Shown here: piece by piece, positions 42,001-51,000 of the stretch
How the letters are laid out: each line of letters opens with the position of its first letter
Numbering within the stretch: the first letter of the stretch is position 1
Program-made: the position numbers
NCBI GenBank assembly: GCA_009914755.4
Contig: CP086569.2
Location: forward strand, 15,872,001 to 15,936,000
From: the human T2T-CHM13v2.0 reference genome, Homo sapiens
Length of the DNA stretch: 64,000 bases
Reading direction: 5' to 3'

Positions 42001-45000
42001 GGAAAGATACAGGAACTTGATGTTCTGTTGGGAAGTATTCAGTCTGATATCATTCTATGCCCCATGATTAATTTTTGTGTCCACAGATGATTTATTTTTA
42101 TATTCATGGGAAAGAGATATGTCTTCTCATGTATATAATCAAGCTCAATGTTAGAAAGGGGCTTTATACAATGTGACTTCATTGTATCCTTGTCAAATAG
42201 GAAGAACCAACAGTACGTGACTTCTGTTTTTCTTGATTTCCCTAATACCTGCATTTCTCCCTGGGTCTGATTTCAATTCACGACTTTTTCTACTCTAAAC
42301 TTATGCTGAAGCTATATCCAATGACTGATGGTTATAAATATTTATTTACAAACATTGCACATTTACTTCCAAACACTGATTTTGTGATAAAGCACAGATT
42401 ATTGTTTCTAGTTTACTGGCATCTTAGAACTGATATTTCATGACATTAAATGGGATCACTAAATGGTGATGTTTAGTATGATTTCATCGGATCAAAAACA
42501 TCGGCTAGGCATTTGAATCTTTTCTTCTTGTAATAGATGTTGGAAATTCTAATTTTTTTCTTTTGTTATTGTTGTTTTATGTGAGTAAGATATATGTAAC
42601 ACAAATTCAGCATTTTAACTCTTTTTGTGTCATCGAATACATTTACATGCTTGTGGAGCTATTACCATCATTCATCTTCAGAATGTTTTCACCTTCCCAA
42701 ACAGAAACCTTGTCCTTATTAAACAACAACTCCTTATCCCCCTCCCTCAGTCCCTGCCTCTTTTCATTCCACTTTCTGTCTCTATGAACCTGACTCCTCT
42801 AGTATCTCATATCAGTGAAAATGATATAGGAGTTAAAAAGAAATTATTTAGGCAGATTATAAAGGTAAAAGGAGTCCTCGGCAAGGCTTGCTTTTTAATA
42901 AAAGTAGCCCCCAAATCACTTGTTTTCTAATAAAGAGCCATCTATATAAGTGAGCTTCAGACACAGTGAAACAAGCTAGAAACTTGAACGCCGGTGAATG
43001 CCGGCACTTGTGCTAATAGGAAACGGCTACCTGGGGTCCAGTGATGTTTAACATGGCAGCTCCATCTTCCCTTTTGTTTGCCAACCACATGTGTGGTAAG
43101 GAATAGACAACATGGCACCAGCCATAGAGAGACCCCCATCTGCATAATAAAAGATTAGGGTGGGATGGTCCACTTCTTCACACACGATCCAAATGTCACA
43201 TATCTGGTCTGACCAATCTCTTGGGCCCTGTATATTTCAGACACCTACCCCTCCAGTTCATCTATAAAACCCTGTGCATTTTTTTTTCAACATGAAACTG
43301 GAAGACCCACTCAGGTGCCTCTCTCTTCATGTGAGAGAGCTGTTCTCTTTTCTCATTCTTTCACCTATTAAACTTTTGCTATTAAACTCACTTGTTGTGT
43401 GTCTGCATTCTCAACCTCATTGGGAGTGAGACAATGAACCTCAGGTATTTAGCCCAGACAATGACACCACTTCAATACCATGCAGGATTTGTCCTTTTGT
43501 GACTGGCTTATATCCGTCACTGAGCAAAATGTCTTCAACATTTTGTTCAGTGTTATCCATCAGTGAGCAAAATATCCTCATGAACAACAATCCATGTTGT
43601 CATCTGTGTCAGAACTTCTTTCCTTTTTAAGGCTGAAGAAATATTTCCAGGTATTTGGATTTCAAGAGGGAACATTTTCAATATTAGAAGATAATTGTTC
43701 CTAAATTTCATGTTCATGATAAGCTGTATTCTTCAGCTCCATGGGAAGTCTATAAGACATAGTGATGTAAGTTGGACACAGGTGAACACTGTTAACTTGG
43801 ATGATGACTTTGCTATGGTTTATGAAGCTTTATCTGTAACTGGACTGCAGGGCTACTGAGACACATGACATGTTCCATTTATATCTGTTTCTGGTATGGT
43901 GCCTTCCTACAACATTTTTCACATAATAGGAACTCAGAAAATTAGTGATATCTTGTACTAGTCAATGCTCTAGTGAAAATAGTAAATGTGTTTATGTTTC
44001 ACTATGGGTTGAACTGTTCCTCTCCCAAAATTCATACAGTGAAGGCTTAACTCTAGTGTCTCAGAATGTGACTTTATTTGTAGGTAGTTCTTTCAAAAAG
44101 TGATTAATGTAAAATGAGGTCAGTAGGGTGGGCCCTGATCCAATAGGACTGGTGTCTTTATGAGAAGAAGAGACGAGGACACAGACACACACAGAGGGAT
44201 GACCCAGGGAGGACACAGGGAGAAGACAGCATCAACAAGCTAAGGAGAGAAGCATGAGGAGGAACCAGCTCTGCTTACACCTTGATCTCAGACTTCCAGC
44301 CTCCAGGACTCTCGGAGAGTAAATGTGTATGTTTACAAGCCATCCAGTTGCAATGTGGACACAGGCACACACAGAAGGATGACCCTGTGAGGACACGGGG
44401 AGAAGATGATGTCTACAAGCCAAGGAGAGAGGCCTCAGGAGGAGCCAACTGTGGCAACATCTTGATCTTGGACTTCCAGCCTGCAGGGCTGTGAGAGAGT
44501 AAATGTCTATTTGTTAAGCCAGTTTGCAGCATTTTGTTACATCAGCCCTAGCAAATGAATACATGCTTACATTTAAAATTATATGAAATATAAATCATAT
44601 TTATATTATGGTCAAGATGTACATAGTTGGAAACCTTGAAGAGGGCAATTTCTGACCATCGCTGGCCATGGGAATGGAATTGACATGGCTGGTGAGAAAT
44701 GAAAAATTGGAGACAATGATACTGCAACCTCACTTTTCCCCTATTTTCTTTATTTTTCAAGTGCTACCCTTCTAAGAAAGGTGCTGGAGTTTCTCCATTT
44801 GATGAGAGTAAGATGGTTGTGTGATTCACTGTGGAAACACATGCGGGGATCCCCTGGAAGCAGGGTGGAGGAACATCTTTACTGCATGCCCTTTTCATTT
44901 TTTTTCATTGTAAGAATGTTTATCTTATTTTTTTTTATACTTCAAGTGATAGGGTACATGTGCACAATGTGTAGGTTTGTTACTTATGTATACATGTGAC

Positions 45001-48000: not shown

Positions 48001-51000
48001 GGGGCACCCTCTGAGACAAAGCTTCCAGAGGAATGATCAGGCAGCAACATTTGCTGTTCAGCAATATTTGCTGTTCTGCAGCCTCTGCTGCTGATTCCCA
48101 GGCAAATAGGGTGTGGAGTGGACCTCTAGCAAACTCCAACAGACCTGCAGCTGAGGGTCCTGACTGTCAGAAGGAAAACTAACAAACAGAAAGGACAGCC
48201 ACACGAAAACCCCATCTGTACATCACCATCATCAAAGACCAAAGGTAGATAAAACCACAAAGATGGGGAAAAAATAGAGCAGAAAAGCTGAAAATTCTAA
48301 GAATCAGAGCTCTTCTACCCCTCCAAAAGAATGCATCTCCTTGCTAGCAACAGAACAAAGCTGGATGGAGAATGTCTTTGATGAGCTGACAGAAGAAGGC
48401 TTCAGACAACCAAACTTCTCCGAGATAAAGAAGGAAGTTTGAACCCATCGCAAGGAAGCTTAAAACCTTGAAAAAAGAATAGATGAATGGATAACTGGAA
48501 TAACCAGCATAGAGAAGTCCTTAAATGACCTGATGGTGCTGAAAACCATGGCATGAGAACTACGTGATGAATGCATGAGCTTCAATAGCTGATTCGGTCA
48601 ACTGAAAGATATGGTATCAGTGATTGAAGATCCAATGAATGAAATGAAGTGAGAAGGGAAGTTTAGAGAAAAAAGAGTAAAAAGAAACCAACAAAGCCTC
48701 CAAGAAATAGGGGACTATGTGAAAAGACCAAATCTACATCTGATTGGTGTACCTGAAAGTGACGAGGAGAATGGAACCAAGTTGGAAAACACTGTGCAGG
48801 ATATTATCCAGGAGAACTTTTCCAACCTAGCAAGGCAGGCAACATTCAAATACAGGAAATACAGAGAGCACCACAAAGATACACCTCGAGAAGGGCCACT
48901 CCAAGACACATAATTGTCAGATTCACCAAAATTGAAATGAAGGAAAACATGTTACACACAGCCAGAGAGGAAGGTCGGGTTACCCACAAAGGGAAGGCCA
49001 TCAGACTAACAGCAGATCTCTCAGCAGAAACTCTACAATCCAGAAGAGAGTGAGGGCCAATATTCAACATTCTTAAAGAAAAGAATTTTCAACCCAGAAT
49101 TTCATTTCCAGCCAAACTAAGCTTCATTAAGTGAAGGAGAAATAAAATACTTTACAGACAAGCAAATGCTGAGAGATTTTGTCACCACCAGGCCTGCCCT
49201 ACAAGAGCTCCTGATGGAAGCACTAAGCATGGAAAGGAACAACTGGTACCAGCCACTTCAAAAACATGTCAAACTGTAAAGACCATCAATGCTAGGAAGA
49301 AACTGCGTCAACTAACGGGCAAAATAACCAGCTAACATCATAATGACAGGATCAAATTCACACATAAAAATATTAATCTTAAATGTAAATGGGCTAAATG
49401 CTCCAATTAAAAGACACAGACTGGAAAAGTGGGTAAAGAGTCAAGACCCATCAGTGTGCTGTATTCAGGAGACCCATCTCATGTGCAGGGACACACATAG
49501 GCTCAAAATAAAAGGATGGAGGAAGATCTACCAAGCAAATGGAAAACAAAAAAAGGCAGGGGTTGCAATCCTAGTCTCTGATAAAACAGACATTAAACCA
49601 ACAAAGATCAAAGGAGACAAAGAAGACCATTACATAACGATAAAGGGGTCACTTCAATAAGAAGAGCTAACTATCCTAAATATGTATGCACCCAATACAG
49701 GAGTACCCAGGTTCATAAAGCAAGTTTGTAGAGACCTACAAAGAGACTTAGACTCCTACACAATAATAATGGGAGACTTTACACCCCACTGTCAACATTA
49801 GACAGAACAACTAGACAGAAAGTTAAAAAGGATATCCAGGAATTGAACTCAGCTCTGCACCAAATGGACCTAATAGACATCTACGGAACTCTCCACCCCA
49901 AATCAACAGAATATACATTCTTCTCAGCGCCATATCACACTTATTCCAAAATTGACCATATATTTGAAAGTAAAGCACTCCTCAGCAAATGTAAAAGGAC
50001 ATCAATTATAACAAACTCTCTCTCAGACCACAGTGCAATGAAACTAGAATGCAGGATTAAGAAACTCACTCAAAACTACTCAACTACTTGGAAACTGAAC
50101 AACCTGCTCCTGAATGACTACTGGGTACATAATGAAAAGAAGGCAGAAATAAAGATGTTCTTTGAAACCAATGAGAACAAAGACACAACATACCAGAATC
50201 TCTGGGACACTTCTAAAGCAGTGTGTAGAGGGAAATTTATAGCACTAAATGCCCACAAGAGAAAGCAGGAAAGATCTAAAATTGACACTGTATGCCCTTT
50301 TCTATAAAGAGTACATATTGGGCTGGTTGCTGTGTGGAACCCTCAAAATGACCTCTTGGTCTTTCTTGTAAGGACAGAGTTGGACACTGTTCACTTGAGA
50401 GACTTCTTTACTAGGGTTGATGCAGCTGTTTCTCTAACTAGACTTGAGGCCTTCACCTGCCTTTTGTAGATAACAAATTAAAAATTAATACAAAACAACC
50501 ACTAAATGTGGGTGATGTGTGAGTTGGATAGCTGCAGTTGAAATCCCTGCTTCACCTTTATGGGGCTATCTGGTAGTGGATAAATTATTCAATTTCTCTA
50601 TGCCTCCTCAGCCTCCTGTATCTGTAAAATTTGGAGAGCAACAGGACCTACTTAACAGGGCTGCTATGAGTATTAAATGCATTACTACATAAAAAGTGAC
50701 GTTTAAAGAATTCATGTATTGGATACAATATATTCAACTCCAGTGATGGACACACTGAAAGCCCAGACTTCAACATTATACAATTCATCCATGTAACCAA
50801 GAACCACATGTACCCATAATGCTGTTGAAATTTTAAAAATAAATGCATTTAAAAAAATAAAAAATAAATGAAAATATTTTAAAAAGTAATGTTTAGAGCA
50901 CCAGAAACAGGATGTACTGATAAACATTAGCCATTATTACCATATCAAATATCAGACCTAGAGAAGTTACACAATAATTCTAATACTTTCCCAATGTATT

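What the first reader, a model, noticed from the sequence alone, without database searches (positions are those of the whole stretch)
44886..50302. A single L1 insertion with a 5' inversion (twin-priming architecture) bounded by an intact 11-bp target-site duplication
Read along the minus strand, from 50290 down to 44938, the element is [inverted L1 ~5'UTR-end/ORF1/ORF2-EN] followed by [direct L1 ORF2-RT/C-terminus/3'UTR] followed by an A-rich tail. The inverted part is on the + strand at 48001-50290 and the direct part on the minus strand at 48000-44938. The two parts meet at the same L1 coordinate: the + part ends ..aaaattgacac and the minus part begins caccctaacatcacaatt. That is the inversion with a small junctional overlap that twin priming predicts. 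The whole ~5.35-kb structure is flanked by the duplication ATGCCCTTTTC (44886-44896 and 50292-50302), so it is one retrotransposition event and not two adjacent L1s. It is a near-full-length example with ORF1, EN and RT all recognisable.
Basis: partly seen in the sequence, partly recalled or inferred. Interest (0 to 1): 0.5.

Follow-up and report, generated by a model that had tools for sequence, protein, structure and literature searches.

The report
Ordinary 5'-inverted (twin-primed) L1 insertion

Summary
ATGCCCTTTTC occurs exactly twice in the window (44886-44896, 50292-50302), at the two borders of 5.35 kb of L1 sequence.

- **Plus-strand arm, 48002-50288:** 261 nt of 5'UTR, ORF1, and ORF2 codons 1-316.
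- **Minus-strand arm, 48001-44937:** ORF2 codons 316-1275 and the 3'UTR, followed by an A-rich tail (44936-44897).

In all 29 intact L1 reference copies I retrieved, the outer end of the plus arm and the inner end of the minus arm map to the same point, overlapping by exactly 3 nt (CAC, ORF2 codon Thr316). The arms abut with no spacer. The plus arm has no 3' end or poly(A) of its own. Both arms are equally diverged from the references (about 7-8% at non-CpG sites).

- Arm borders shift by 1-2 nt.
- The duplication is probably 16 nt with one mismatch, which gives a 2-nt microhomology at the internal priming site.
- The tail is interrupted by 22 non-A bases.
- The 5'-most ~775 nt are missing.
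- All ORFs are broken.
- The element keeps the 129-bp 5'UTR segment lost in later L1PA3 and younger families.

Verdict: a textbook twin-priming product, long for its kind but not novel. The orthologous empty site could not be checked.

The parts
44881..44896 (.). Target-site duplication, tail-side copy. The exact 11-nt core is 44886-44896; the probable full length is 16 nt (ACTGCATGCCCTTTTC).
   Evidence: the exact 11-mer occurs only here and at 50292. The five bases to the left match 4 of 5.
44897..44936 (-). A-rich tail of the insertion. On the sense (minus) strand it reads A9 (44936-44928), TAAGATAAACATTCTTACAATG (44927-44906), A8 (44905-44898), T (44897).
   Evidence: homology to another L1 3' end stops at ...GAAGTATAA followed by the A run.
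44937..45136 (-). L1 3'UTR (direct arm)
   Evidence: aligns to the 3' ends of the L1 at 5718-8384 and of the reference L1 copies. The ORF2 stop codon is at 45139-45137.
45137..48001 (-). Direct arm: ORF2 codons 316-1275 plus the stop codon (linker, reverse transcriptase, C-terminal domain). It is disrupted by stop codons and frameshifts. The longest open stretch is 492 aa (45789-47267).
   Evidence: the stitched translation matches PDB 8uw3_A residues 316-1275. Pfam RVT_1, E = 2e-29; about 91% identity to reference L1s, starting at window 48001.
48002..48262 (+). Inverted arm: the last 261 nt of the L1 5'UTR, including the ~129-nt segment (about 48010-48134) that later L1PA3 and younger families have deleted.
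   Evidence: aligns from query position 8 to references L003, L008 and L020, which carry the extra ~125 nt relative to L005. for the literature on the deletion.
48263..49269 (+). Inverted arm: ORF1 remnant with several in-frame stops and a frameshift
   Evidence: matches human ORF1p structures 2yko, 2ykp and 6fia (E = 3e-103).
49343..50288 (+). Inverted arm: ORF2 codons 1-316 (endonuclease domain and start of the linker), ending ...AAA ATT GAC AC
   Evidence: matches 8uw3_A from residue 1, and the endonuclease structures 1vyb and 7n8s (E = 6e-133); the alignment to every reference ends at window 50288.
50287..50302 (.). Target-site duplication, copy on the inverted-arm side. The exact core is 50292-50302. 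The 16-nt version (ACTGTATGCCCTTTTC) overlaps the last two L1 bases (AC, 50287-50288), which gives a 2-nt microhomology. If the duplication is only 11 nt, then 50289-50291 (TGT) is 3 nt of filler.

Best explanation
This is one LINE-1 retrotransposition event that went through twin priming. Steps 1-5 are inferred from the final structure; they were not observed.

1. The L1 endonuclease nicked the window's plus strand after ...ATGCCCTTTTC (empty-site reading CCCTTTTC/TATAAAG).
2. That 3' end primed reverse transcription at the poly(A) end of an L1 RNA. The cDNA ran through the 3'UTR and ORF2 as far as ORF2 nt 945 (window 44897 to 48001).
3. The other strand was cut 11 nt away, or more probably 16 nt away. 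Its 3' end (...GGGCATGCAGT-3') annealed inside the same RNA at ...GAC-AC through 2 nt of microhomology.
4. This second primer made a second cDNA running towards the RNA 5' end. It stopped about 775 nt short of the 5' end (window 50288 back to 48002).
5. The two cDNA 3' ends were joined essentially blunt at 48001|48002, and the gaps were filled in. This produced the duplication and a 5'-inverted, 5'-truncated L1.

The element belongs to an older L1PA lineage: the L1PA3 type that still has the 129-bp segment, or older. My rough estimate is L1PA5-7. It has since decayed, and all its ORFs are broken.
For: - **Breakpoint coincidence.** In all 29 intact L1 copies retrieved, the plus arm ends and the minus arm begins on reference positions that overlap by exactly 3 nt. 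The alignment shows ...AAAATTGACAC|TGTATGCCC and ...GCCC|CACCCTAACATC against the contiguous reference AAAATTGACACCCTAACATC.
- **Protein collinearity.** The plus arm covers ORF2p residues 1-316 and the minus arm covers 316-1275 of 8uw3_A. The joined peptide aligns without a gap at the junction.
- **No duplicated segments.** The arms share no sequence with each other apart from the 3-nt overlap.
- **Flanking duplication.** It is an exact 11-mer, unique in the window; 15 of 16 positions match when extended.
- **One tail only.** There is a single tail, next to the direct arm, and no A or T run at 50289.
- **Equal divergence.** Against 13 long references, non-CpG divergence is 6.2-8.6% for the inverted arm and 6.6-8.0% for the direct arm. 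No comparison reaches significance; the lowest p is 0.12.
- **Agreement with published statistics.** 5' inversions make up 18-31% of L1 insertions. 46% have breakpoints within 20 bp of each other. 95% show 5'-junction microhomology, mostly 2-5 bp. Only 3.9% carry extra nucleotides. The TSD mode is 14-16 bp. Internal junctions often lack microhomology.
Against: - The endonuclease site is not canonical: TTTC/TA, or TTTT/C if shifted by one, instead of TTTT/A.
- The tail is interrupted by 22 non-A bases and ends in T.
- The inner junction shows 0-1 nt of microhomology.
- The pre-insertion empty site was not seen in any other genome (one search found nothing).
- At 3.07 kb and 2.29 kb, the arms are much longer than the reported germline medians of 571 and 751 bp. 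This makes the element unusual in size but does not contradict the mechanism.
Confidence: 0.93

Rival explanations
1. A collinear, 5'-truncated 5.35-kb L1 inserted normally. Later a chromosomal inversion flipped its 5' 2.29 kb.
For: The final order and orientation of the segments would be the same. The equal divergence of the arms and the flanking duplication are also expected under this scenario.
Against: - One inversion breakpoint would have to fall within 0-3 nt of the L1/duplication boundary by coincidence.
- A simple inversion does not explain why 1-3 L1 nucleotides (CAC) are present in both arms.
- It does not explain the 2-nt match between the duplication's end and the L1 priming site.
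- There are no inverted repeats at the breakpoints that could have mediated recombination.
- Twin priming is a frequent outcome; such precise secondary inversions are not.
Confidence: 0.03
2. Two priming events at one staggered break used two different L1 RNA molecules of the same subfamily. One was primed at its poly(A) and the other internally.
For: This gives the same architecture and the same duplication. Two-RNA ('dual priming') variants have been proposed.
Against: The first cDNA stops at ORF2 nt 945 and the second starts at nt 945-947. This follows naturally if both enzymes were on one template, and is a coincidence of roughly 1 in 1000 if the templates were independent. In the published dual-priming model the second RNA is primed at its poly(A), and no second poly(A) is present here.
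Confidence: 0.03
3. Two unrelated L1 insertions lie next to each other in opposite orientation, and the flanking 11-mer match is due to chance.
For: Nested and adjacent L1 fragments are very common in primate DNA, and this window holds others.
Against: - The plus arm lacks any L1 3' end or poly(A), which target-primed insertion requires.
- There is no spacer and no separate duplication between the arms.
- The L1 coordinates are adjacent to within 3 nt.
- The 11-16-nt repeat lies exactly at the outer borders.
- The arms are equally diverged.
Confidence: 0.01

Closest known systems
5'-inverted L1 insertions produced by twin priming (Ostertag & Kazazian 2001, cited from the reference lists of PMC12016303 and PMC2837659; surveys in PMC2912911 and PMC12016303)
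   Same: - The order is TSD, inverted upstream L1 segment, direct downstream L1 segment, poly(A), TSD.
- The breakpoints are adjacent with a small overlap.
- There is microhomology at the internal priming site and little or none at the inner junction.
- The TSD falls in the 11-16 nt range.
   Different: - The arms are longer than usual: 2.29 kb and 3.07 kb, against germline medians of 0.75 and 0.57 kb.
- The inversion point lies far upstream, at ORF2 codon 316, so the copy retains ORF1 and the whole of ORF2.
- The tail is interrupted.
- The endonuclease site is degenerate.
Human LINE-1 of the L1PA lineage (ORF1p structures 2yko and 6fia; ORF2p structures 8uw3 and 8sxt)
   Same: The ORF1p, endonuclease, reverse transcriptase and C-terminal regions are all recognisable. 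Nucleotide identity to L1HS/L1PA2-3-like copies is about 91%.
   Different: The copy is dead, with at least 10 stops and several frameshifts in the direct ORF2 part alone. It lacks the first ~775 nt, which hold the promoter. It retains the 129-bp 5'UTR segment that later L1PA3 and younger elements deleted.
Twin-priming variants with an inverted poly(A), and 'dual priming' (Meyer et al. 2010, PMC2837659)
   Same: Both strands of a staggered break prime reverse transcription.
   Different: Those loci have a 5' poly(T) and a very short or absent non-inverted part. Here there is no 5' poly(T), and the non-inverted part is 3.07 kb.

Membership tests
Twin-primed (5'-inverted) L1 insertion | Two segments of one L1 in opposite orientation, directly abutting, with the inverted segment being the upstream part of the element | tested here: met
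   the plus arm is 5'UTR to ORF2 codon 316 and the minus arm is codon 316 to the 3' end. The junction is at 48001|48002 with no spacer.
Twin-primed (5'-inverted) L1 insertion | Breakpoints of the two segments adjacent in L1 coordinates, with a small duplication or deletion | tested here: met
   A 3-nt overlap (CAC) in all 29 reference copies. This falls to 1 nt if the terminal AC is counted as primer microhomology.
Twin-primed (5'-inverted) L1 insertion | One target-site duplication bracketing the whole structure, with none around either arm alone | tested here: met
   An exact 11-nt repeat, or 15 of 16 when extended, at the outer borders and unique in the window. The arms abut each other, so there is no room for separate duplications.
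Twin-primed (5'-inverted) L1 insertion | A single poly(A) tail at the end of the direct segment, and none on the inverted segment | tested here: met
   the tail is at 44897-44936 (interrupted). Sequence at 50289-50291 is TGT, followed by the duplication.
Twin-primed (5'-inverted) L1 insertion | Microhomology between the top-strand primer (end of the duplication) and the internal L1 priming site | tested here: inconclusive
   There is a 2-nt microhomology (GT/AC) if the duplication is 16 nt with one substitution. If it is 11 nt, there is none, plus 3 filler bases. The 16-nt reading is favoured by the 4-of-5 match (chance about 1.6%) and by published frequencies.
Twin-primed (5'-inverted) L1 insertion | L1 endonuclease consensus (TTTT/A-like) at the first-strand nick | tested here: inconclusive
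   The empty-site reading is CCCTTTTC/TATAAAG, that is TTTC/T, or TTTT/C one base earlier. It is a T-rich pyrimidine run followed by an A-rich stretch, but not one of the canonical motifs. Only about 63% of germline L1s score as canonical.
Twin-primed (5'-inverted) L1 insertion | Both arms of the same age and subfamily | tested here: met
   divergence from 13 references is indistinguishable between the arms.
Twin-primed (5'-inverted) L1 insertion | An orthologous empty site in a species that predates the insertion, showing one copy of the duplicated sequence | not testable with these tools
   No primate genomes are available. A scan of metagenome contigs for the flank found nothing.
LINE-1 (primate L1PA lineage) | ORF1p, and an ORF2p with APE-type endonuclease and reverse transcriptase, in L1 order with an L1 3'UTR | tested here: met
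   PDB matches, with E-values from 3e-103 to below 1e-240; RVT_1; 3' end.
L1PA3-short / L1PA2 / L1HS (young families) | 129-bp deletion in the 5'UTR (loss of the ZNF93 site) | tested here: not met
   The segment is present at about 48010-48134. It aligns to references L003, L008 and L020, which carry it, and not to L005 and similar copies, which lack it. The element therefore belongs to an older family.
L1 3' transduction (considered for the tail interruption) | Non-L1 sequence between the element's own A run and a second poly(A), traceable to the 3' flank of a source L1 | not testable with these tools
   The arrangement A9, 22 nt, A8 fits the layout. No source locus could be searched: one search found nothing in the window or in the fetched loci, and one search found nothing in metagenome contigs.

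The most novel reading that the evidence does not exclude
The 22-nt non-A block inside the tail (44906-44927) may be a very short 3' transduction. Under this reading the RNA read through the source element's own A run and was polyadenylated about 20 nt downstream. It would tag the source L1 of this insertion. Together with the collision-like breakpoint (first cDNA ending at the very base where the second primer annealed), this would give one fully resolved old twin-priming event with a known progenitor.
Probability: 0.25. Interest if true: 0.15.

Novelty: already known. Interest (0 to 1): 0.1.

Why it matters
It matters little beyond correct annotation. The two oppositely oriented L1 fragments at 44937-50288 should be counted as one insertion event, not two, when dating or counting L1 activity at this locus. 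The copy is a clean and unusually long illustration of twin priming, with a 3-nt breakpoint overlap, a probable 16-nt duplication and a 2-nt priming microhomology. It has no coding capacity and no promoter, so no activity is expected from it.

Tried and rejected
- **Two independent adjacent L1s.** Rejected: the plus arm has no 3' end or poly(A), there is no spacer, and the coordinates are adjacent within 3 nt.
- **Fold-back or palindromic duplication by template switching onto the nascent cDNA.** Rejected: the arms share no sequence with each other.
Judged less likely than a 16-nt duplication with one substitution, but not excluded.
- **Microhomology at the inner junction.** None convincing, 0-1 nt.
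- **Orthologous empty or filled site, and the source of the 22-nt tail block.** Searched in metagenome contigs with zero hits in both scans. No second copy of the block turned up in the window or the fetched loci.
- **Ostertag & Kazazian 2001 (PMC311219).** Not held in the library, so the mechanism is cited through later open papers.
- **Rfam scan of the window.** No family reached threshold.
- **Exact L1PA subfamily.** No curated consensus library was available. Only the presence of the 129-bp segment and the ~8% divergence could be established.
- **Caveat.** Its result was therefore re-checked against PDB sequences.
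Full report
**Observation.** The region was read directly. ATGCCCTTTTC is present at 44886-44896 and 50292-50302 and nowhere else in the 64-kb window on either strand. As a control I took 3000 random pairs of 100-bp zones at the same spacing. 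A shared word of 11 nt or more occurred 13 times, about 0.4%, partly because of repeats. Here the word sits exactly at the two borders of the L1 sequence. The match also continues to the left, ACTGCATGCCCTTTTC against ACTGTATGCCCTTTTC, which is 15 of 16 positions. Four or more matches out of five extra positions is expected by chance about 1.6% of the time.

**What the two arms are.** Six-frame translation and comparison with solved structures identify both arms.
- On the plus strand there is an ORF1p remnant starting at ATG 48263. It matches 2yko, 2ykp and 6fia at E = 3e-103.
- Also on the plus strand, ORF2p starts at ATG 49343 and runs to residue 316. This includes the whole endonuclease domain, which matches 1vyb and 7n8s at E about 6e-133.
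- On the minus strand, a stitched translation from 48001 downward matches ORF2p 8uw3_A residues 316-1275, that is to the natural C-terminus. Pfam RVT_1 hits the longest open stretch.
- A peptide joined across the two arms aligns with ORF2p residues 1-469 with no gap or repeat at ...RSKIDT|LTSQLKEL....
For that reason its conclusions were re-verified against PDB sequences.

**Nucleotide-level breakpoints.** No L1 consensus library was available. I therefore scanned the bacterial and archaeal genome collection for the intact junction sequence AAATTGACACCCTAACATCACA. This returned 29 contigs that are evidently human L1 contamination, several of them 5-7 kb and four with a complete 5' end.
- Against every one of the 29, the plus arm aligns up to window 50288 and the minus arm starts at window 48001.
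- The two reference positions overlap by exactly 3 nt.
- The multiple alignment shows the references reading AAAATTGACACCCTAACATC. The plus arm reads AAAATTGACAC|TGTATGCCCTTTTC and the minus arm reads ...GGGTGCCC|CACCCTAACATC.
- The shared bases are C-A-C, ORF2 nt 945-947, within and just before codon Thr316. This is about nt 2930-2935 of a full-length L1HS-type element.
- The arms do not otherwise resemble each other, so this is not a fold-back duplication.

**Inner junction.** At 48001|48002 the antisense ORF2 sequence ...GATGTTAGGGTG meets the 5'UTR sequence GGGCACCCTCTGAGAC... directly. Comparison with references that carry the same 5'UTR type shows no spacer and at most 1 nt of ambiguity. 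The 5' truncation point corresponds to about nt 775 of an L1HS-type element. The promoter-bearing part of the 5'UTR is therefore absent.

**Outer junctions.**
- *Tail side.* The L1 3'UTR ends ...CACTTGAAGTAT (44937), confirmed against another L1 3' end in the window. It is followed, in the sense orientation, by A9, the block TAAGATAAACATTCTTACAATG, A8 and T, and then the duplication. Twelve of the 22 block positions are non-A. That is too many for a decayed A run at about 8% divergence. The block is either a very short 3' transduction or some other tail-internal insertion. I could not find a source for it.
- *Other side.* The inverted arm ends ...GACAC at 50288, followed by TGT and the 11-mer. 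If the duplication is 16 nt with one later substitution, the top-strand primer ended ...GCAGT-3' and its last two bases pair with AC of the L1 RNA. In that case there are no filler bases.
- *Which reading is better.* Published surveys report extra nucleotides in only 3.9% of 5'-inverted L1s, microhomology in about 95% (mostly 2-5 bp), and a TSD mode of 14-16 bp. This favours the 16-nt reading.
- *Endonuclease site.* The site read from the reconstructed empty sequence is CCCTTTTC/TATAAAG. It is T-rich but not canonical.

**Same event or two events?**
- Divergence from 13 long reference copies is the same for both arms. At non-CpG sites it is 6.2-8.6% for the inverted arm and 6.6-8.0% for the direct arm, with no comparison near significance.
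- The inverted arm has no L1 3' end and no poly(A), so it cannot be a free-standing target-primed insertion.
- The arms abut without a spacer, so neither has its own duplication.
- Breakpoints coinciding to within 3 nt out of about 6000 would be roughly a 1-in-1000 coincidence for independent fragments.
- A later chromosomal inversion of a collinear copy would need one breakpoint exactly at the L1/duplication boundary. It would not explain bases copied into both arms.
- Twin priming predicts all of these features. It accounts for 18-31% of L1 insertions, and 46% of those have breakpoints within 20 bp of each other. The mechanism is described.

**Mechanism (inferred).** The sequence shows only the final product; each step below is inferred from it.
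1. A first-strand nick on the window's plus strand after ...CCCTTTTC primed cDNA synthesis from the poly(A) end of the L1 RNA.
2. A second-strand nick 16 nt (or 11 nt) away produced a 3' end that annealed internally on the same RNA at ORF2 nt 946-947. It primed a second cDNA towards the RNA 5' end.
3. The first enzyme stopped at nt 945, the very point occupied by the second primer.
4. The second cDNA ended about 775 nt short of the RNA 5' end.
5. The two cDNA ends were joined without useful microhomology, and the gaps were filled, creating the duplication.

**Family and age.** The element is about 91% identical to L1HS/L1PA2-3-like copies. It retains the ~129-nt 5'UTR segment (about 48010-48134) that is present in references L003, L008 and L020 and absent from L005 and similar copies. 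That segment was deleted in later L1PA3 and all younger families. The copy is therefore L1PA3-long or older. From the divergence I estimate roughly L1PA5-7, but this is an inference and not a test. All ORFs are broken: ORF1 has several in-frame stops, and the direct ORF2 part has 10 stops and several frame changes.

**Comparison and verdict.** This is a member of a thoroughly described class. Its only distinctions are size and completeness. The arms are 2.29 and 3.07 kb, against germline medians of 0.75 and 0.57 kb. ORF1 and every ORF2 domain are represented. The orthologous empty site, the one classical confirmation still missing, could not be examined here.

Noticed in passing
window 44906-44927 (minus strand): A 22-nt non-A block, TAAGATAAACATTCTTACAATG, lies between an A9 run and an A8 run in the tail of the insertion. 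It may be a very short 3' transduction. No second copy was found in the window, in the fetched loci or in metagenome contigs.
   Followed up: partly
window ~48010-48134 (plus strand): The inverted arm keeps the ~129-nt 5'UTR segment (the reported ZNF93-bound region) that later L1PA3, L1PA2 and L1HS have deleted. It contains a 17-nt unit repeated 2.3 times at 48042-48080.
   Followed up: partly
loci L001-L029 (genome contigs): Twenty-nine contigs filed under bacterial species representatives carry primate L1 sequence, up to full length with flanks. Examples are several Streptomyces, Actinomadura and Streptosporangium JCM assemblies, Mycobacterium spp., Arthrobacter antarcticus and Parabacteroides sp. 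52. This is evidently human DNA contamination in those assemblies.
   Followed up: partly
window 5718-8384 (minus strand), 5623-5726, 8387-8710: A second, 5'-truncated L1 covers ORF2 from about residue 465 to the 3' end and is 88% identical to the focal direct arm. Its tail has become a (GAAA)n microsatellite. An Alu with its A-rich tail (8387-8430) lies immediately 5' of it in the same orientation.
   Followed up: partly
window ~17768-27139 (plus strand): An endogenous retrovirus. A pair of LTR-like direct repeats about 8.9 kb apart (17768-18280 and 26738-27139, 81-89% identical) contains 24-nt TGTAAAATGCACCAATCAGCAC tandem units. Decayed RNase H (22397-22729) and integrase zinc-domain (23421-23720) ORFs lie between them. 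From memory the repeats resemble LTR12/HERV9; this was not tested.
   Followed up: partly
window 44177-44510: A 180-nt unit is present in 1.9 tandem copies (80% matches), about 375 bp to the left of the L1 insertion site. Its nature was not determined.
   Followed up: no
window 16840-17051 (minus strand): A weak, old L1 ORF2 C-terminal remnant (50-67% amino-acid identity to human ORF2p) lies just upstream of the retroviral LTR.
   Followed up: no
window 3909-4016, 9292-9739, 36360-36601: Long simple repeats: (TA)54, an (AT)n/(TATATACA)-type array of about 450 bp, and an AG-rich tract of about 240 bp.
   Followed up: no
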